Source of the DNA: a virus
Lineage: Duplodnaviria; Heunggongvirae; Uroviricota; Caudoviricetes
Length of the DNA stretch: 51,780 nucleotides
Strand: one strand, 5' to 3'
Virus record (IMG/VR): IMGVR_UViG_2541047930_000003
Shown: positions 2,795-16,351 of the stretch, piece after piece
Position numbering within the stretch: position 1 is the stretch's first letter
Layout: each line of letters starts with the position of its first letter
Position numbers and translations under genes: made by a program
The notes under the pieces: model-generated
Databases searched by the model: none
Told to the model about the DNA's origin: nothing
The model's input: the letters and a program-made list of their open reading frames with translations, nothing else

Positions 2795-5387
2795 TTGCAT
2801 ATTCCTTAGCCCAGCGGGGCAGTGATAATGTCTTAATAGCTGGCCATTCATCGGTATTCAGGCAGTCAGACAGGGTTCGCAGATTGCGGTGATATTCCTG
2901 TTGACCTGCCAGTTTTGCTTCTTCGCCCATCATGAAAATTTCAACCGGATAACGTCCGCATTCAATAGTTGTGCTGGCAACCAGAAAAACGAAAGTTGGC
3001 TGCACTCCAAACTGTGCTTCATAACCGTCACTGTAGAATGCATCCTGAACGTGATAGCGGTAGTCGTAATAAGCGGTTTTGAATCGTTGAATATCCGCCG
3101 TAGTTTTCACGTCCATGATCCAGTGAAATTCAGGGATAATTTTGTCCGGACGGCACCGACACAAAATTCCTGTTTCAGGATCTTCCCAGTAAATTGATGA
3201 TTCAGCGTGTCCGGCGCTTTCAACAAGCCATTGCCCCAGCGGCAAAGCCATAACGCTTTGATACATGAGTTCAATTTTCCGGCCTTCTTCCGCAGTGATA
3301 ACCGTTTTTCCTGTGCTTGCGCATTCCATCAGAAACGCTTTCTCTTCTTCTTTTCCGGCGTTTGTACGGCGGTTAAATTCAGGTGCTACGATAAAGCGGT
3401 TACTGAATTCTTCCGGTTCAAGTACCCGGCAGTGGAAAGCGGCTCCTAAATCGAGCGTTTTTGTCTTTGTGGTGTCCACGGGGGCATTTTTACGCCACAA
3501 ATATAGTGCCGGAGTATCAGCAATGTCATCGAGCTGAGACTTACTGACACCGGGACCCGCGTGGTAATTCTCATTCGAAATTCCGTAATAAATACCTGGC
3601 TCTATGTCTTCTACGATTACGGGATCTGCGACTTCGCCAGTTTCATCACTGCAATCGCGATGCGGATCGCTGCCAGCATTCTCATTGTGCGGATGTTCAG
3701 CGCCTTCCATTTCCTCCGGATCATTTTCCTTAGCTTCAACCTGACTCTCTTCATCGAATGTTTCCTGGTATGTTGCGTCGCCCATCACCGCACCACAGTC
3801 AGGGCAGTTATCCCCGCCAGTCTGGCCGCAGGCATTGCAGGCTATTTCCGGTTCCTGTTGCACTACTGGCTCAGGTTGATTCATATCCGGGCTGGTTTTT
3901 TCCGTTTCTGGCTGGTTCTGGTACACACAATCGCGAGTCTGGATCCCCTTTACCCATTTCGGATCGTTCGGGTCGCTAATTCCGTCAACAAATTCACCAC
4001 GTGATGCAGCAAGCAATTTATCGGCATCGACAGGATTTTTTGATGGAATGTTTTTCCGGGCTTCATGGAGTTCTGCCCGCAGTTCCTGATATTTCGCATC
4101 AACAGAATTTACCTGTGACTGAGCATCCAGCGGCTGCGTGTCCTGATGATGTTCAGTTGCGTCCGGTTCCATTGTTTCAGCCTCTCCCTGTTCAACTGCC
4201 GTTGTTCCAGATGGTTGCGGTTTTTCTTCATCATCCTGTTTTCCTTCTTCTGTTACTCGCTGCGGCATCGGGGCAGAGGAGCGACCGCAGGCAATATCCA
4301 CGATTTCCGGATCAGGGTTGGCATGATCGGTTTCAGTCAGTACTTTGTTCAGATATTCAGTGACGTGCGCGGGGATGACCTCGATCCCAATTGGTGCTTC
4401 TTTTACGGACGCAACCACGATGGCGCGGGAATAATCCAGCCCGCCAGGCATGGTGATGAATTTGTCGCGGAAAACAGAAAAGGGCGGTTTATTTTCAGCG
4501 ATAATTTCCTCAATGCGTTTAGCGTGTGCCGGATGAAGGTTATAGATGTCCAGATCCATTGAACGGGCCAGTACGCCAGTGGCTACGTCGCGCGCCAGTG
4601 ACGTCAGATCGTGTACGAAACCTTCGCCGCGATCGGTGAGGTTTCCGCCGCCAGCATTAGCACCGGAAGCCGTGCGAGTGATGTGTGAAACACGATTACC
4701 CTTCATCCACTCTTTTGTCAGCAGTCCTCGATCGGTGTAGTCAGCGTTCAGGTATGCTTCGAAAAAAGCAGTTATCAGTCCCAGGTTTGAATTACCAGGA
4801 TTAGGGAAAACTTTGTCAGTGTCACGAACCAGTTTGTGGAGTTCGCGAATTTCCAGCGGGTCGAGCAGGCTGGTTTTGTGGGAAACAGCCAGGGCAGTAA
4901 CAGCCGGTAGTTCTTCAGCCCGAGCAATGTGTAATGCCTGGAGTCTGTCGCGTGAAACGTGCGTTACCGGTTTTTCGCTGCCGTGTTGAGCAAGCCAACG
5001 AATGGGCAGTTCTTGGCCAGAAATTGGGAGTAGCATATTCTCCTCAATCTCAGTCATGTCTTCGCCGTTGACGTTGGTATTGCCTTGATAGTGAGCGTTG
5101 TCTGGTGCTGCTCCCGGTTTTAGTTCCCATGTCATGGAGTCTTTGCTGAGTTGATAGCGTTCACTCCAGGTAAAATCGATCTCACCTTCAGCGGGCAGGT
5201 CATTAACGACAGGAAAATTCGTGGCAACAGCTTTAAAATAGCTGCTCAGTTTTTTACCTGACTTAACGATCAGGTAGTCCAGAGTGGCACAGGTCGATTC
5301 AAAATCGTTGCTTGCCCACAGGACGACGTCAGGTTCACCGGATGATTTTTTCGCTTTCCGTAACAGGAAGAGTGGTTTTGTGCTCAT
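2787..5387 (-). CDS. recE: RecE exonuclease VIII (866 aa, full length)
   Basis: 866-aa ORF starting [52 protein letters not shown]; length and sequence match RecE; overlaps recT start by 8 bp. Confidence 0.93.
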
Positions 5388-10575: not shown

Positions 10576-11337
10576 ATGGAAACCGTTTTTGATGCACTGA
10601 AAGCAATGGGAAAAGCCACGTCGGTAGAACTGGCTGCGCGACTTGATATCAGTCGTGAAGAAGTGCTGAATGAGCTGTGGGAACTTAAAAAGGCTGGCTT
10701 CGTTGATAAAAGCGTATACACCTGGCGTGTGGCTGATAACAACGTTCAGCAGGAACAGCCAGAGCAGGCAGAACTGCCGGAAGAAACCACCACGGCAACA
10801 GTAGCGAAAATCTCAGAGTGCGATTTAACCGCGACGATTGAACAACGTGGCCCACAAACGGCGGATGAACTGGCTACGTTTTTCGGCACCACATCACGCA
10901 AAGTGGCTTCAACGCTGGCAATGGCAATCAGCAAAGGCCGTCTGATTCGCGTTAATCAGAACGGTAAATTTCGTTACTGCATGCCGGGCGATGATTTACC
11001 AGCAGAGCCGAAAGCTGCATCGGTAACGGAAACTGATGGTAAAGCCTTTCCTCAACCAGCAGGTGTTGCGTTACCGGGACAGGAAGCTGCAACACAGGAA
11101 GATATTAAAACAGAAACTGTGGCGGACATTGTGCAGTCGTTGCCATCGTTTACCGAAACGCGAGCGGATGACCTCGTTCTGCCATCGCTGCATATGGCAA
11201 ACCGCGAACTGCGTCGGGCGAAAAATCATGTCCAGAAGTGGGAGCGTGTCTGCGCCGCGCTGCGGGAGCTGAACAAGCACCGGGATATTGTTCGACAGAT
11301 TACTGATTCTTCTCGCTGTGTTGCATCGGAAAAGTGA
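10576..11337 (+). CDS. Hypothetical phage protein, probable winged-helix N-terminus (253 aa)
   Basis: Met18 of ORF 10525..11337 preceded by GGGAGGA RBS. Confidence 0.5.
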
Positions 11338-11352
11338 TTGCCGGAGGCGCTT

Positions 11353-11769
11353 ATGGCAAAAGTATTTACACAAGAAGAGCGGGAAAAAATCAAGGGACAG
11401 GTTGTTGAGCTAGTACGCCGGAGTGGGCGCGAGACGTTACGGCAACTGGAAGCCAAGACAGGTGCGACAAGATATCTGATGAGCGTTCTCGCCAGAGAGC
11501 TGGTTGCCAGTGGCGATGTATACAACTCTGGCTACGGGTTATTCCCGTCTGAACAGGCTCGTAAGGACTGGCAAAATGCCCGCAAAAAACTATCTAGGGC
11601 AAAGGTGAAGAAACCATCTGTGGTTGATCCGGACCTTATCTGGTCATTACCTGACGGAGAAATACGTCGTTATGACAGGCACCAAAACATAATTTGCTGT
11701 GAGTGCCGGAAGAGCGAAGTTATGCAGCGCATACTGGCATTTTATCAGAGAAATTTTCGTTATTTATAG
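11353..11769 (+). CDS. Hypothetical phage protein (138 aa)
   Basis: Met6 of ORF 11338..11769 preceded by GGAGG RBS. Confidence 0.5.
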   Translation: MAKVFTQEEREKIKGQVVELVRRSGRETLRQLEAKTGATRYLMSVLARELVASGDVYNSGYGLFPSEQARKDWQNARKKLSRAKVKKPSVVDPDLIWSLPDGEIRRYDRHQNIICCECRKSEVMQRILAFYQRNFRYL

Positions 11770-11932
11770 ACGTTACTCGATTAAAGAGCATTAGTTCAGA
11801 TGTGAATTGACATTTTCACGGCACAGGATTGAGCTAGCGTGGTTGTCTGCTTTGTGTCAAAAGCAGATATTACCAGATTTAGACATCTATTCCCGATAGC
11901 CCTGCTCTGATGCTACACTCTGTGCTATTTTC

Positions 11933-12619
11933 ATGACCCCAATAAAAATATTTATGACTATTGCTGATTTCAAACGGCCTAAATTGGAGCTCCCAAACGG
12001 GGCAAACAAACTACTACTGCACTCTTGCTGTGCTCCATGTTCCGGTGAAGTGATGGAGGCGCTTCAGGCCTCGGGAATCGACTATACCATCTTTTTCTAC
12101 AACCCGAACATTCATCCTCAGAAAGAGTATTTAATTCGTAAGGATGAGAATATTCGCTTTGCTGAACAACACGGCGTGCCATTTATTGATGCTGATTACG
12201 ACACAGACAACTGGTTTGAACGTGCCAAAGGAATGGAATGGGAGCCCGAGAGGGGGATCCGTTGTACCATGTGTTTTGACATGCGTTTTGAGCGGACAGC
12301 GCTGTACGCTGCTGAAAATGGTTTCAGTGTGATCAGCAGTTCACTGGGCATTTCACGCTGGAAAAATATGCAGCAGGTTAACGACTGTGGGCGGCGAGCC
12401 GTCGCGCATTATCCGGGCATGGTGTACTGGGATTATAACTGGCGCAAGCAGGGCGGCTCGTCCCGCATGATTGAAATCAGCAAGCGCGAAAAATTCTATC
12501 AGCAGGAATATTGTGGCTGTGTGTATTCTCTGCGCGATACCAATCTACACCGCAAATCTCAGGGACGCCCTCTTATCAAAATTGGTCAACTCCACTACGG
12601 TAAAGAAGAGAAGGAGTGA
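11933..12619 (+). CDS. DUF208 / QueH-like protein (putative epoxyqueuosine reductase family, Fe-S), 228 aa
   Basis: N-terminal [11 protein letters not shown] motif, which I recall as the DUF208/QueH signature; further Cys (CTMCFD, YCGC); alternative start at 11954. Confidence 0.5.
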
Positions 12620-12875
12620 TTTTATGGAGCACCTTTCTTATTGATTTCATATTGGCGAGGTAGCGGGAGTTAAGTAAAATTGCTGCGGGTGCTTGAGGCT
12701 ATCTGCCTCAGGCATGAACACCAAAAGGCAGATAGAGAAAAGCCCCAGTTAACATTACGCGTCTCTGCAAGACGCTTAACATTAATCTGAGGCTCAATCT
12801 ATGCTGAACACATGTAGGTTAGCCTCTTACGTGCCGAAAGGCAAGGAGAAGCAGGCTATGAAGCAGTAAAAGGCG

Positions 12876-13013
12876 ATGTTAATCGCCCTGATCGTCATCG
12901 GTTTAACCGTCATAGTGACGGCACTGGTAACGAGGAAAGACCTCTGCGAGGTACGAATCCGAACCGGGCAGACGGAGGTCGCTGTCTTCACAGCTTACGA
13001 ACCTGAGGAGTAA
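12876..13013 (+). CDS. Hok-family type I toxin, HokD/RelF-like; canonical start disrupted by TAA at codon 4, leaving a 45-aa ORF from an internal ATG
   Basis: atg aag cag TAA aag gcg ATG tta atc...; product MLIALIVIGLTVIVTALVTRKDLCEVRIRTGQTEVAVFTAYEPEE matches the Hok TM and periplasmic domains. Confidence 0.6.
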   Translation: MLIALIVIGLTVIVTALVTRKDLCEVRIRTGQTEVAVFTAYEPEE

Positions 13014-13087
13014 GAGACCGGGCGGGAGAGTAATCTCCCGCCACCTCTGATATGTCAGGCATCCTCAACGCACCCGCACTTAACCCG

Positions 13088-13110
13088 CTTCGGCGGGTTT
13101 TTTCACGTAC
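13088..13110 (+). terminator. Rho-independent terminator after the hok locus
   Basis: cccgcttcggcgggtttttt hairpin plus T-tract. Confidence 0.65.
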
Positions 13111-13221
13111 TGTGGTTGTGAATACGATTGGTATTAGGCTATGCTAACAACATTAGCCTGACTAATTTTGTATTGACTTAATTTTTGTTAAAGAACAGGA
13201 CGAAGACGTAAGGGTACACCA

Positions 13222-13401
13222 ATGAGCTACGCACTAAAAAAACACCCGCGATTGACTATTCCCCCTCGCGATAAAAGCGTTGTGGCAGCTCCGCGCCCGG
13301 CTATCGATGAAAATTGCACTCATCGTGAGCAGGTGAAAAATGCTTTCGATTTCGGTTTTTCTCGTTACGAGAAGGCAATGGAAGATCTTTCAAAAGTGTA
13401 A
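13222..13401 (+). CDS. Small ORF (59 aa) upstream of the Doc toxin; candidate cognate antitoxin, not Phd-like by eye
   Basis: Hand translation MSYALKKHPRLTIPPRDKSVVAAPRPAIDENCTHREQVKNAFDFGFSRYEKAMEDLSKV; AAGGG RBS; stop 19 bp before the Doc ATG; below ORF-track cutoff. Confidence 0.4.
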   Translation: MSYALKKHPRLTIPPRDKSVVAAPRPAIDENCTHREQVKNAFDFGFSRYEKAMEDLSKV

Positions 13402-13419
13402 TGATGGGTATTGTGCTCT

Positions 13420-13905
13420 ATGGCTGAGATTGTTGAAGGAGTGCACTACCTTTCGGTTGATGATCTTACTGAAATTAATCGCCTTTTAATTGAGCTTCAA
13501 ACACCAGATGAACCTGTTGGTGTGCTGAGTGTTGATAATTTAAGTTCTTCTCAGTCTCGTCCCAGTATGGTTCGATGGTATGAGCAAACCAACGACATGT
13601 TTGTACTGGCATCGGTATTGATTGAAAGTCTGATTCAGAATCATCCATTTGCCAATGCAAACAAGCGCACAGCAATGATGGCTGGTGCGGTTTTTTTATT
13701 GTTAAATGGATACGAATTAACCGCACCAGGCGATGAAGTTGTGGAGATGGCTGAGGGGCTGGCCTGTAAAATTTATACACGAGAAGAGCTTGAAAATTGG
13801 TTGTGTTATTGGTCTCGTGCGTATGACAGTCGGGAATTATGTAAAACAGGCGCAACTATTGTTTTGTATGAAACTATCAAGCTTAAAATAGAACAGCAAA
13901 ACTAA
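13420..13905 (+). CDS. Doc-family (Fic/Doc) toxin (161 aa)
   Basis: HPFANANKRTA matches the Doc motif HxFx(D/N)(A/G)NKR; N-terminal region resembles P1 Doc; ATG is Met4 of ORF 13411..13905. Confidence 0.75.
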   Translation: MAEIVEGVHYLSVDDLTEINRLLIELQTPDEPVGVLSVDNLSSSQSRPSMVRWYEQTNDMFVLASVLIESLIQNHPFANANKRTAMMAGAVFLLLNGYELTAPGDEVVEMAEGLACKIYTREELENWLCYWSRAYDSRELCKTGATIVLYETIKLKIEQQN

Positions 13906-13920
13906 AGATGCTTCTAATGA

Positions 13921-13944
13921 AAACTCGCTTCGGCGGGTTTTTTG
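13921..13944 (+). terminator. Rho-independent terminator after the Doc gene
   Basis: ctcgcttcggcgggtttttt; near-identical to the terminator after hok. Confidence 0.65.
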
Positions 13945-14128
13945 TTGCGTGCTGAATATGCAGGGTGAAAAATAACCATATATTTGATTATATACACAGC
14001 CAAAAATAAAAGTCATTGTACCTGCACATTAAACAATCAAATATACGACGTGAAATAAATATTTTTCAGATTAATATTTTTGTCTCTATGTGGATATAAC
14101 CTTTTGTACTTATAAACCTGGAGGCATC

Positions 14129-14341
14129 GTGGAAAAAATAAAGAAACTATTTAGTAGCAAATACGCAGTCATACGTCGTGATGACCTGTCAGTTATAGTC
14201 GAAATGGATTACTTCCCTGAAACCCCAAAATCAATGATGTATCGTAATGGTCGAAAGGCAATTTTTTTACCGATGAGGGTAAGTGACATTATGGGAAATG
14301 ATAAACTGCTGGATGAATTGCGAGTCAGAGCATCCTGTTAG
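14129..14341 (+). CDS. Hypothetical small protein (about 70 aa) in an AT-rich moron
   Basis: ORF 14090..14341; GGAGG RBS 5 nt before GTG at 14129; AT-rich flanks distinct from neighbouring phage DNA. Confidence 0.35.
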   Translation: MEKIKKLFSSKYAVIRRDDLSVIVEMDYFPETPKSMMYRNGRKAIFLPMRVSDIMGNDKLLDELRVRASC

Positions 14342-14412
14342 TATTGGCATTAATTCTGATATACTACATAACGGGCTGAACACCCATTCTACTGCGCCAG
14401 CGGAGAACTACG

Positions 14413-15012
14413 ATGGCGCATATACAACTGGTCAAACAAACCTCTTCCGGATTACTTCTCCCGGCGACGCCGGAGAGTTGCGATTTTCTGCATCAAATCA
14501 AAATAGGCGAGTGGATACACGCTGACTTTAAGCGTGTTCGTAACTACGCATTCCACAAGCGTTTTTTCAAACTCCTGCAACTCGGATTCGATTACTGGAC
14601 TCCGGTCGGTGGGGCGATCACTCCTCGCGAACGAAAACTGGTGTCCGGTTTCGTTGATTATCTGTGTGAATCAGTAGGCCGGGAACATACGCCAGCTCTG
14701 AGCGAAGCCGCAGAGCAATATCTGAATACAGTTGCGACACGCAGAACCCGAGATACAGCATTGCTAAAGTCGTTTGAGGCTTTCCGCGAGTGGGTAACCA
14801 TTCAGGCCGGATTTTACACCGAGCATATTTATCCGGACGGTAGCCGTGGGCGCAGGGCGAAATCCATCTCGTTTGCGAATATGGACGAAACCGAGTTTCA
14901 GCAGGTTTATAAATCTGTGCTGAATGTACTGTGGAACTGGATTCTGTTCCGTAAATTTTCCTCTCCGGAACAAGTCGAAAATGTGGCCGCGCAGCTACTG
15001 GAGTTTGCGTAA
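14413..15012 (+). CDS. Hypothetical nin-region protein (199 aa), possibly DUF1367-like
   Basis: ORF with ATG at 14413; position upstream of YbcO-like and Q genes; family assignment from memory only. Confidence 0.45.
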   Translation: MAHIQLVKQTSSGLLLPATPESCDFLHQIKIGEWIHADFKRVRNYAFHKRFFKLLQLGFDYWTPVGGAITPRERKLVSGFVDYLCESVGREHTPALSEAAEQYLNTVATRRTRDTALLKSFEAFREWVTIQAGFYTEHIYPDGSRGRRAKSISFANMDETEFQQVYKSVLNVLWNWILFRKFSSPEQVENVAAQLLEFA

Positions 15013-16197: not shown

Positions 16198-16273
<76 letters not shown>

Positions 16274-16276
16274 TAT

Positions 16277-16351
<75 letters not shown>

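What the first reader, a model, noticed from the sequence alone, without database searches (positions are those of the whole stretch)
12780..13110. hok-type type I toxin locus with a premature stop in the canonical start region
The locus reads atg aag cag TAA aag gcg ATG..., i.e. a HokD-like gene whose codon 4 is a stop. An in-frame internal ATG still encodes a 45-aa Hok with intact TM and periplasmic domains. This could be an inactivated hok or an altered translation-coupling arrangement.
Basis: partly seen in the sequence, partly recalled or inferred. Interest (0 to 1): 0.5.

Follow-up and report, generated by a model that had tools for sequence, protein, structure and literature searches.

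The report
Prophage hokD toxin gene with early stop
This is a complete hok/sok toxin-antitoxin locus on a Rac-like E. coli prophage whose toxin gene has a stop at codon 4; it is most likely an ordinary, rare knocked-out or weakened allele, not a new regulatory design.

Summary
Window 12858-12878 reads ATG AAG CAG TAA AAG GCG ATG. A 45-codon frame (12876-13013) remains and still matches Pfam HOK_GEF.

The locus is a full hokD-type hok/mok/sok module. It has a promoter, a leader matching Rfam sok at 119 bits, predicted tac-fbi 5'-3' pairing, an in-frame mok and a terminator. Sok is inferred from its position in K-12. The module lies between queH and a doc toxin gene in a Rac-like prophage at ttcA.

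Compared with its nearest intact relatives and an outgroup, the allele is derived. It carries C>T (Q4*), T>G (Cys15Gly at a conserved Cys) and +T in the leader/Sok hairpin. An Escherichia marmotae intermediate carries only Cys15Gly.

The haplotype has one origin. It occurs in 7 of 5,426 complete E. coli genomes and on at least 287 public contigs. It has spread into different host backgrounds and into a second prophage.

Other hokD lineages carry independent early hits: Q4* in two further backgrounds, Q3*, and start-codon loss. However, the late stop R33* is found in as many genomes (10) as Q4*. Early stops are therefore not specially favoured.

Met7 has no usable Shine-Dalgarno sequence and lies in a hairpin. 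Best reading: a null or strongly attenuated toxin allele. Leaky reinitiation at Met7 is not excluded. Interest is low.

The parts
12652..12680 (+). hok mRNA promoter-like site: -35 TTGGCG, 17-nt spacer, -10 TAAAAT
   Evidence: Consensus scan. It lies 6 nt upstream of the start of the Rfam model match at 12687. It is identical in the intact allele.
12687..13103 (+). Full-length hok mRNA (about 417 nt) from the predicted 5' end to the terminator U-run
   Evidence: The Rfam sok RF01794 match starts at 12687. The fold gives MFE -176.6 kcal/mol, z=-8.29 against shuffles.
12687..12698 (+). tac-like 5' element (GGGUGCUUGAGG) that pairs with the 3' fbi element
   Evidence: Predicted pairs 12687-12692 with 13075-13070 and 12693-12698 with 13068-13063.
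13063..13075 (+). fbi-like 3' element (CCUCAACGCACCC)
12732..12809 (-). Predicted Sok antisense RNA (about 78 nt)
   Evidence: Ends placed by position from the K-12 sokC/mokC annotation: the sokC 5' end lies opposite the 9th nt of mokC. It folds into a long hairpin followed by a U-rich tail, z=-5.9. The ends are inferred, not measured.
12816..12844 (-). Putative Sok promoter: -35 TTGCCT (12844..12839), 17-nt spacer, -10 TAACCT (12821..12816)
   Evidence: Read from the sequence. Its position fits the Sok 5' end inferred from K-12. It did not pass the stricter consensus scan.
12764..12764 (+). Derived 1-nt insertion (T) at the tip of the leader/Sok hairpin
   Evidence: Absent from K56-43-un, N1420 and the outgroup MFDS1019527. 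It adds one predicted base pair, 12764-12770.
12801..12869 (+). mok leader ORF, in frame with hok and cut to 22 codons by the same TAA
   Evidence: ORF list. The start aligns with the K-12 mokC start. In K-12, mokC and hokC share one stop codon and are therefore in frame.
12843..12848 (+). hok Shine-Dalgarno sequence AAGGAG
   Evidence: Anti-SD duplex of -8.5 kcal/mol ending 9 nt before ATG 12858.
12858..12869 (+). Canonical hok start plus three codons, ending in the premature stop (ATG AAG CAG TAA). The derived C>T is at 12867.
   Evidence: Both the intact relatives and the outgroup have CAA.
12876..13013 (+). Residual 45-codon Hok frame starting at Met7, annotated in RefSeq as WP_000903685.1 'Hok/Gef family protein'
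   Evidence: The AUG lies in a predicted 6-bp hairpin (12872-12877 with 12882-12887), and the best anti-SD duplex is only -3.2 kcal/mol, 2 nt from the AUG.
12900..12902 (+). Codon 15 GGT (Gly), derived from TGT (Cys), at the family-conserved transmembrane Cys
   Evidence: An intact 51-aa HokD carrying this change alone exists in the same gene context in E. marmotae.
12996..12999 (+). Tyr47 codon within a UACG motif. Published work reports Tyr-to-Cys recoding by TadA editing at this position in hokC/D/E.
   Evidence: The motif is read from the sequence. The editing is reported in bioRxiv 10.1101/2025.08.07.668861. Editing was not tested here.
13082..13103 (+). Intrinsic terminator: 7-bp GC-rich stem, UUCG loop, U-run
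   Evidence: Predicted pairs 13082-13088 with 13099-13093, followed by TTTTTT.

Best explanation
The locus is a complete hokD-type hok/mok/sok type I toxin-antitoxin module carried by a Rac-like lambdoid prophage integrated at ttcA. In this lineage the toxin gene has been knocked out or nearly so.

The order of changes is inferred as follows. A T>G change first replaced the conserved transmembrane Cys15 with Gly. A C>T transition then turned Gln4 (CAA) into TAA. Because mok is in frame with hok in this lineage, the same stop ends both frames three codons after the hok AUG.

Ribosomes that start at mok or at the hok AUG therefore release a 22-aa Mok fragment or the tripeptide Met-Lys-Gln. Full-length HokD is not made. 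The 45-codon frame from Met7 is a leftover. Its AUG has no usable Shine-Dalgarno sequence and sits in a small hairpin, so at most a trickle of product could arise by post-termination reinitiation. That product would also lack Lys2 and Lys5 and carry Gly in place of Cys15.

The RNA elements (promoters, tac/fbi, Sok, terminator) are still intact because the event is recent. The allele arose once and has travelled with the phage into several host backgrounds.

Shown here: sequence state, derived polarity, linkage, distribution, predicted RNA folds. Inferred: loss of toxicity, absence of translation from Met7.
For: Locus identity:
- Pfam HOK_GEF at 1.1e-21.
- Rfam sok at 119.4 bits against a gathering score of 59.
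- Predicted tac-fbi pairing, z=-8.3.
- mok start and Sok position match the K-12 mokC/hokC/sokC annotation.
- Prophage context intR..recET..kilR..ydaUV..queH-hok-doc.

Derived state:
- The nearest intact alleles (K56-43-un, N1420) encode a HokD identical to the K-12 protein. They differ within the hok mRNA only at 12764, 12867 and 12900.
- The outgroup shares their states at all three sites.
- E. marmotae locus L025, in the same gene context, carries only Cys15Gly.

Local substitution pattern:
- In the 3.3-kb nearly identical block 11279-14580 there are 6 derived changes.
- 3 fall in the 419-nt hok mRNA. None fall in the other coding sequences (roughly 2.2 kb, my tally from the ORF list).

Rarity and single origin:
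- TAA and GGT occur together in the same 7 of 5,426 complete genomes, against about 9,750 hokD-like sites.
- All carriers share an identical core around hok.

Spread:
- Five host-flank haplotypes differ by 38-62 SNPs per 5.9 kb, while several of the prophages differ from the window by only 2-11 positions per 33 kb.
- AH19B041 has a second copy in a different prophage.

No special status for early stops:
- Q4* in 10 genomes, Q3* in 2, start loss (ATG>ACG) in 5.
- The late stop R33* is also in 10 genomes; R35* and Q38* in 0.
- In an IMG/VR sample, 96 of 97 hokD-like genes are intact.

Met7 start:
- Anti-SD duplex of -3.2 kcal/mol ending 2 nt from the AUG, against -8.5 kcal/mol at 9 nt for the canonical start.
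- The AUG is paired in a 6-bp hairpin.

Published work:
- In R1 hok, premature stops abolish toxicity, and Mok translation is needed only up to the hok initiation region (PMC9841398).
Against: - The stop lies only 6 nt before an in-frame AUG, a spacing that allows termination-reinitiation in bacteria (general knowledge). Some 45-aa product could therefore be made.
- The whole Pfam Hok domain is retained.
- In R1 Hok, the equivalent Cys16Ala mutant was still toxic on overexpression (bioRxiv 10.1101/2025.08.07.668861), so Cys15Gly need not be inactivating by itself.
- The allele has persisted through horizontal spread to at least 287 contigs, including E. marmotae, without further decay. The lineage is, however, too young for decay to be expected (2-11 differences per 33 kb between the closest carriers).
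- Early disruptions recur in at least three Q4* backgrounds, plus Q3* and start loss.
- No expression or toxicity data exist for this allele.
Confidence: 0.7

Rival explanations
1. Attenuated but working toxin. Ribosomes that terminate at TAA 12867-12869, after translating mok or the MKQ mini-ORF, reinitiate 6 nt downstream at AUG 12876. They produce a low dose of a 45-aa Hok that still acts on the membrane. On this reading the stop converts the normal mok-hok coupling into a termination-reinitiation relay that lowers toxin output.
For: - 6-nt stop-to-start spacing and an in-frame AUG.
- The full Pfam HOK_GEF domain is retained.
- Mok translation up to the hok initiation region is preserved. 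That is the part shown to matter in R1 (PMC9841398).
- All RNA control elements are intact.
- Disruptions of codons 1-6 that leave the Met7 frame recur in several lineages.
- The allele is widespread, on at least 287 contigs.
Against: - No usable SD for AUG 12876 (-3.2 kcal/mol, 2-nt spacing), and the AUG is paired in a hairpin.
- The product loses both N-terminal lysines and carries Cys15Gly.
- Met7 is not conserved in the family: Ile variants appear in the published catalogue and in the IMG/VR sample.
- Early stops are no more common than the clearly destructive R33* (10 genomes each).
- The recurrence of 45-aa ORFs in protein databases is partly an ascertainment effect, since I found them by looking up the 45-aa ORF itself.
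Confidence: 0.2
2. Actively selected inactivation. Hok activity was harmful to these lysogens or to the phage, so successive hits (Cys15Gly, then Q4* and the leader insertion) were fixed by positive selection rather than by drift.
For: - 3 of the 6 derived changes in a 3.3-kb block fall in the 419-nt hok mRNA (my binomial estimate, P about 0.03).
- Both coding changes are radical, while the neighbouring genes have none.
- The order Cys15Gly first, then the stop, is supported by the E. marmotae intermediate.
Against: - The numbers are very small and the test was chosen after seeing the data.
- More than 99% of hokD-like loci are intact, and null alleles are each at about 0.1% or less. This fits mutation-selection balance better than a general advantage of loss.
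- In phage Sp5 the homologous hokW-sokW locus helps phage release (PMC8621323).
Confidence: 0.08
3. Artefact or recoding. The TAA is a sequencing error, or it is bypassed by readthrough, a suppressor tRNA or RNA editing, so full-length HokD is still made.
For: None found. A-to-I editing by TadA does occur in hok mRNAs, but at a different codon.
Against: - The sequence is identical in 7 independent complete assemblies and on at least 287 contigs.
- The two prophage tRNAs are Thr(tgt) and Gly(tcc), not suppressors.
- The stop context is UAAA, and its surroundings (GUAAAAG) do not contain the UACG TadA motif.
Confidence: 0.02

Closest known systems
E. coli K-12 HokD (RelF) and the HokD-type hok loci of lambdoid prophages
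   Same: The ancestral form of this gene encodes a protein identical to K-12 HokD, MKQQKAMLIALIVICLTVIVTALVTRKDLCEVRIRTGQTEVAVFTAYEPEE. That peptide was toxic in published assays. The location is also the same kind: about 9,750 hokD-like sites in 4,695 of 5,426 E. coli genomes.
   Different: This allele has Q4*, Cys15Gly and a leader insertion. Unlike the relBE-linked hokD copies seen here (L024, L028), whose upstream sequence differs, it keeps a complete leader with mok and Sok.
hokC/mokC/sokC (gef) locus of E. coli K-12
   Same: Same layout: the conserved 5' leader GGGTGCTTGAGGCT, the same mok start (ATGCTGAACACATGTAG), mok in frame with hok, and Sok antisense across the mok start.
   Different: The window's leader hairpin is 19 nt longer. 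In the window the toxin frame is broken by a point mutation. IS186A lies immediately beside K-12 hokC.
hok/sok of plasmid R1 (the reference system)
   Same: Same family (Pfam HOK_GEF, Rfam sok), same predicted 5'-3' fold-back control, and the same leader-ORF coupling. Premature stops in R1 hok abolish toxicity (PMC9841398).
   Different: The published experiment placing a stop in mok downstream of the hok start without affecting hok translation implies that R1 mok is out of frame with hok. That is not so here. R1 Hok, as I recall its sequence, has no internal Met near the N-terminus that could serve as a restart.
hokW-sokW of Stx2 phage Sp5
   Same: A hokD-like type I toxin-antitoxin locus on a lambdoid prophage. 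The window locus is about 94.5% identical to the corresponding region of VT2-Sakai. Experiments showed that hokW-sokW assists lysis and phage release after induction (PMC8621323).
   Different: hokW is intact. This allele should have lost or reduced that contribution.
Other naturally disrupted hokD alleles
   Same: Rare point-mutant alleles: Q4* in two other backgrounds, Q3*, ATG>ACG start loss and R33*. PGAP also names these 'Hok/Gef family protein'.
   Different: Only the window lineage combines Q4* with Cys15Gly and the leader insertion.

Membership tests
hok/sok (Hok/Gef) type I toxin-antitoxin locus | Toxin ORF belongs to the Hok/Gef protein family | tested here: met
   The 45-aa frame hits PF01848 HOK_GEF at E=1.1e-21, model positions 2-42 of 42.
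hok/sok (Hok/Gef) type I toxin-antitoxin locus | Uninterrupted toxin frame of about 50 codons from the SD-preceded start | tested here: not met
   TAA at codon 4 (12867-12869). The intact relatives have CAA.
hok/sok (Hok/Gef) type I toxin-antitoxin locus | Leader region matches the curated RNA family for the locus | tested here: met
   Rfam RF01794 (sok) at 119.4 bits against a gathering score of 59, full model, at 12687-12863 on the + strand.
hok/sok (Hok/Gef) type I toxin-antitoxin locus | Long-range 5'-3' (tac-fbi) pairing that closes the full-length mRNA | tested here: met
   The predicted MFE pairs 12687-12698 with 13063-13075; z=-8.29 against shuffles. This is a prediction only.
hok/sok (Hok/Gef) type I toxin-antitoxin locus | Overlapping leader ORF (mok) that starts upstream and is translated across the hok initiation region | tested here: met
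   ATG 12801 aligns with the K-12 mokC start and is in frame with hok. It reads through the hok SD and AUG before stopping at 12867.
hok/sok (Hok/Gef) type I toxin-antitoxin locus | Antisense Sok RNA with its own promoter opposite the mok start | tested here: inconclusive
   Its position is inferred from the K-12 sokC coordinates, and the antisense strand folds well (z=-5.9). TTGCCT-17-TAACCT is visible in the sequence but fails the consensus scan. No transcript data.
hok/sok (Hok/Gef) type I toxin-antitoxin locus | Toxicity of the product and its repression by Sok | not testable with these tools
   Requires expression assays.
Pseudogene or null allele of hokD | Disabling change that is derived relative to close relatives and an outgroup | tested here: met
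   C>T at 12867 is unique to this haplotype. K56-43-un, N1420 and MFDS1019527 all have C.
Pseudogene or null allele of hokD | Signs of relaxed constraint, meaning further radical changes in the same gene | tested here: met
   Cys15Gly is linked to the stop in all carriers. No changes occur in the neighbouring coding sequences of the same block.
Pseudogene or null allele of hokD | Continued decay after the disabling hit | tested here: inconclusive
   The seven best copies are 100% identical over 481 nt; the second AH19B041 copy carries the same hok-mRNA changes. The lineage is too young to give statistical power: the closest prophages differ from the window at 2-11 positions per 33 kb.
Termination-reinitiation coupled ORF | Upstream stop within a few nucleotides of the downstream start | tested here: met
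   TAA 12867-12869 and ATG 12876, a 6-nt spacer.
Termination-reinitiation coupled ORF | Ribosome-binding help at the restart site: an SD at functional spacing and an accessible AUG | tested here: not met
   The best anti-SD duplex is -3.2 kcal/mol ending 2 nt before the AUG. The AUG is paired in a 6-bp hairpin.
Termination-reinitiation coupled ORF | The arrangement is favoured in evolution over other ways of breaking the gene | tested here: not met
   Q4* in 10 genomes and Q3* in 2, against R33* in 10. In the IMG/VR sample, 96 of 97 genes are intact and the single broken one is Q38*.

The most novel reading that the evidence does not exclude
Disruptions confined to hokD codons 1-6 recur in several lineages: Q4* in at least three backgrounds, Q3*, and ATG>ACG. 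They may not be plain knockouts. They could be a recurrent route to a low-dose 45-aa Hok made from Met7, by reinitiation in the stop alleles. This would let temperate phages keep a weakened toxin that lysogens tolerate better.
Probability: 0.1. Interest if true: 0.45.

Novelty: already known. Interest (0 to 1): 0.15.

Why it matters
The practical value lies mostly in annotation. RefSeq names the 45-aa leftover (WP_000903685.1) and even the 32-aa R33* fragment 'Hok/Gef family protein'. Counts of 'functional' Hok toxins in E. coli prophages therefore include broken genes.

The allele also shows a Rac-like phage spreading between hosts, and into E. marmotae, without an intact hok. If the Met7 product were shown to be made and active, it would be a natural example of tuning a type I toxin by reinitiation. 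Nothing here argues for that.

Tried and rejected
1. Sequencing error. Rejected: the sequence is identical in 7 complete genomes and on at least 287 contigs.

2. Suppressor tRNA, readthrough or editing rescue. Rejected: the prophage tRNAs are Thr and Gly, and there is no TadA motif at the stop.

3. The stop acts through RNA structure or the Sok promoter. C12867 pairs with G12981 in the predicted fold, and U keeps a G-U pair at a cost of about 2 kcal/mol. The site lies about 58 nt upstream of the inferred Sok start, outside the -35/-10 hexamers. I found no evidence for such an effect.

4. Early stops are specially enriched. I tested this with site-specific megablast counts at C>T sites of comparable mutability. 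Q4* 10, Q3* 2, R33* 10, R35* 0 and Q38* 0 genomes. Not supported. These counts are of genomes, not of independent events.

5. The -1 frameshift alleles (A4>A3, giving MKQQRRC* overlapping the Met7 ATG) looked like an attractive coupled arrangement. None exists in the 5,426 complete RefSeq genomes, and two of the four assemblies carrying it (L029, L033) show other fragmented genes. They are probably homopolymer sequencing errors.

It gave 97 usable loci with one disrupted, which is too few to test where disruptions fall.

7. I searched the supplement of the published Hok catalogue for the 45-aa Gly peptide. It was absent from the stored text, but one file was truncated, so this is inconclusive.

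8. No sequenced phage record carries the allele; the best match is about 96% identical.

Full report
**Observation**

Window 12858-12878 reads ATG AAG CAG TAA AAG GCG ATG. An ORF from ATG 12876 to the stop at 13011-13013 encodes 45 residues, MLIALIVIGLTVIVTALVTRKDLCEVRIRTGQTEVAVFTAYEPEE. This product matches Pfam HOK_GEF at E=1.1e-21 over essentially the whole model.

The stop is real. The 481-nt locus is 100% identical in seven independently assembled complete E. coli genomes. The exact 45-aa product is recorded on at least 287 public contigs.

**What the locus is**

It is a complete hokD-type hok/mok/sok module, not just an ORF. The parts are:
- A promoter-like site, TTGGCG-17-TAAAAT, at 12652-12680.
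- A leader at 12687-12863 that matches Rfam sok (RF01794) at 119.4 bits against a gathering score of 59, on the hok strand.
- A 419-nt transcript that folds far better than shuffled sequences (z=-8.3). Its first 12 nt (12687-12698) pair with 13063-13075 just before a terminator hairpin at 13082-13099. This is the tac-fbi closure typical of hok mRNAs.
- A leader ORF starting at ATG 12801, which aligns with the K-12 mokC start. As in K-12, where mokC and hokC share a stop codon, it is in frame with hok.
- A predicted Sok RNA on the minus strand at about 12809 to 12732, placed by transferring the K-12 sokC coordinates. TTGCCT-17-TAACCT lies upstream of it. This antisense stretch folds into a stable hairpin. 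The promoter did not pass the stricter consensus scan, so Sok is inferred rather than shown.

The module lies between queH and a small-ORF/doc pair. It sits inside a Rac-like lambdoid prophage integrated at ttcA, with intR, xisR, ralR, recET, kilR, sieB, ydaTUV, then DUF1367/1364/1133, lysis genes, trkG and head and tail genes.

**Polarity and history of the change**

The closest intact alleles are in strains K56-43-un and N1420. They encode a protein identical to K-12 HokD. Within the hok mRNA they differ from the window at only three positions:
- an extra T at 12764, at the tip of the leader/Sok hairpin;
- C>T at 12867 (Gln4 to stop);
- T>G at 12900 (Cys15 to Gly).

A more distant locus, MFDS1019527, shares the intact states at all three sites. 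The window's states are therefore derived.

In the locally near-identical block 11279-14580 there are six derived changes. Three lie in the hok transcript, three are intergenic, and none is in DUF977, queH, the 59-aa ORF or doc. This clustering is only weakly significant (my binomial estimate is about 0.03, chosen after seeing the data). It fits a gene that is no longer protected.

An E. marmotae contig with the same queH-hok-doc context carries an intact 51-aa HokD with Cys15Gly and none of the other five changes. Cys15Gly therefore most likely came first.

**Distribution**

45-mers centred on the TAA and on the GGT are each found exactly in the same 7 of 5,426 complete genomes. About 9,750 hokD-like sites in about 4,700 genomes carry the other state.

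All carriers share an identical core around hok, while other prophage modules show blocks of recombination. Their chromosomal flanks fall into five haplotypes that differ by 38-62 SNPs per 5.9 kb. Several of the prophages differ from the window at only 2-11 positions per 33 kb. Strain AH19B041 carries the allele in two different prophages.

So the allele arose once and has since moved horizontally with the phage. It is also recorded in E. marmotae.

**Is the early stop special?**

Looking up the Cys version of the 45-aa ORF revealed at least 624 contigs in at least ten prophage contexts. Upstream of those ORFs I found several different lesions:
- ATG>ACG start loss;
- Gln3 TAG;
- Gln4 TAA in two further hok backgrounds;
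- a -1 frameshift in the A4 run.

This looks like convergence, but the sample was selected by searching for the 45-aa ORF itself. I therefore counted specific alleles in the complete genomes. The queries were built so that every seed word spans the mutated base.

| Allele | Genomes |
|---|---|
| Gln4 TAA | 10 |
| Gln3 TAG | 2 |
| ATG>ACG | 5 |
| -1 frameshift | 0 |
| Arg33 TGA | 10 (7 chromosomes, 3 plasmids) |
| Arg35 TGA | 0 |
| Gln38 TAG | 0 |

The frameshift alleles are probably long-read homopolymer errors, since two of the four assemblies that carry them (L029, L033) show other fragmented genes. A late stop that removes the periplasmic part of the toxin is thus as common as the stop at codon 4. 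In a capped IMG/VR sample, 96 of 97 hokD-like genes were intact and the single broken one was Gln38 stop.

Null alleles of hokD are rare, each in about 0.2% of genomes or fewer. They are scattered along the gene and are not enriched at the N-terminus. These counts are of genomes, not of independent events.

**Mechanism**

In the R1 system, Mok must be translated up to the hok initiation region, and premature stops in hok abolish toxicity (PMC9841398). In the window, mok translation across the hok SD (AAGGAG, 12843-12848) is preserved. Both mok and hok ribosomes, however, terminate at 12867-12869. They yield a 22-aa Mok fragment or Met-Lys-Gln.

AUG 12876 lies 6 nt downstream, so reinitiation is conceivable. 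Against it:
- the best anti-SD pairing there is -3.2 kcal/mol ending 2 nt from the AUG, against -8.5 kcal/mol at 9 nt for the canonical start;
- the AUG is paired in a predicted 6-bp hairpin.

Any product would lack Lys2 and Lys5. My inference from the positive-inside rule, which I did not test, is that these lysines help orient the helix. The product would also carry Gly at the conserved Cys, although R1 Hok Cys16Ala remained toxic on overexpression. Met7 is not invariant in the family.

The C>U change converts a predicted C-G pair (12867-12981) into G-U at a cost of about 2 kcal/mol. The inserted T adds one base pair to a hairpin tip. I see no strong RNA-level effect. There is no suppressor tRNA in the prophage.

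**Verdict**

The most likely reading (about 0.7) is an ordinary, recent loss-of-function or strongly attenuated allele of prophage hokD. The flanking RNA machinery is still intact only because too little time has passed for it to decay. A leaky reinitiation product with residual activity remains possible (about 0.2) and can only be settled experimentally.

The hokW-sokW locus of phage Sp5, which is closely related to this one, helps phage release (PMC8621323). The allele may therefore cost the phage something, which fits its rarity. Its spread shows that the cost is not prohibitive.

Prophage hok/sok loci are already well described in the literature read here, and naturally disrupted hokD alleles recur in public genomes. 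The useful by-product is an annotation caveat: RefSeq names both the 45-aa leftover and the 32-aa Arg33-stop fragment 'Hok/Gef family protein'.

Noticed in passing
window 11933-12619: An epoxyqueuosine reductase gene (QueH, Pfam E=1.9e-65) lies directly upstream of hok in the prophage. It is present in the window lineage and its nearest relatives, but absent from the otherwise similar locus in MFDS1019527 and from the second prophage of AH19B041.
   Followed up: no
window 13222-13905: A 59-aa ORF with no Pfam hit is followed by a Fic/Doc-family toxin gene (annotated as a death-on-curing toxin). This is probably a type II toxin-antitoxin pair sitting right next to the type I hok locus. Two of the six derived substitutions in the block (13203, 13207) lie just upstream of the 59-aa ORF's start.
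   Followed up: partly
window 12834-12835 compared with L156 (phage Rac MN652886.1) 431-644: The reading frame of mok relative to hok differs between hokD-type loci. It is in frame here and in K-12 mokC/hokC. In phage Rac it is out of frame because of one extra T just before the hok SD (AAAGGTCAAGGAG versus AAAGGCAAGGAG). A stop at hok codon 4 therefore truncates Mok only in in-frame lineages.
   Followed up: partly
L025 (E. marmotae GCA_034425155.1) 3001-3156; L024 (GCA_054505685.1) 3001-3156: An intact 51-aa HokD carrying only the Cys15Gly change occurs in the same queH-hok-doc context. It also occurs in a relBE-hokD (Qin-like) context. The same substitution is therefore present in two different settings.
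   Followed up: partly
L021 (AH19B041, CP196316.1 3956325-3962462): One genome carries the TAA/Gly allele twice, in two different prophages. The second copy lacks queH upstream and has the ancestral base at the position matching 13925. This suggests the hok-doc segment moved between prophages by recombination.
   Followed up: partly
L029, L033, L034, L035 (around 2980-3000): A -1 deletion in the A4 run of codons 4-5 gives MKQQRRC*, whose stop overlaps the Met7 ATG (ATGTTAA). It was seen only in draft or long-read assemblies, and two of the four (L029, L033) also show other fragmented genes. It is absent from all 5,426 complete RefSeq genomes, so it is probably a homopolymer sequencing error.
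   Followed up: yes
E. coli complete genomes, hits H136-H145: An Arg33 TGA stop allele of hokD-like genes is present in 10 genomes, including three plasmids of about 91-92 kb. PGAP still names the fragment 'Hok/Gef family protein'.
   Followed up: partly
window 13854-13945: Sub-threshold Rfam matches to rsmX and istR (about 27-31 bits, below the gathering scores) fall on a stem-loop plus T-run just after doc. This is most simply an intrinsic terminator (CTCGCTTCGGCGGGTTTTTT), not an sRNA.
   Followed up: no
window 16198-16351: The prophage carries tRNA-Thr(tgt) and tRNA-Gly(tcc) downstream of the DUF1133 antiterminator-like gene. They are absent from the ERP001 version of the prophage, which has a different lysis module.
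   Followed up: no
window 12996-12999 and 12952-12955: Two UACG motifs lie within hok. The one at the Tyr47 codon is the site where published work reports TadA A-to-I editing (Tyr to Cys) in hokC/D/E. It is unchanged in this broken allele.
   Followed up: no
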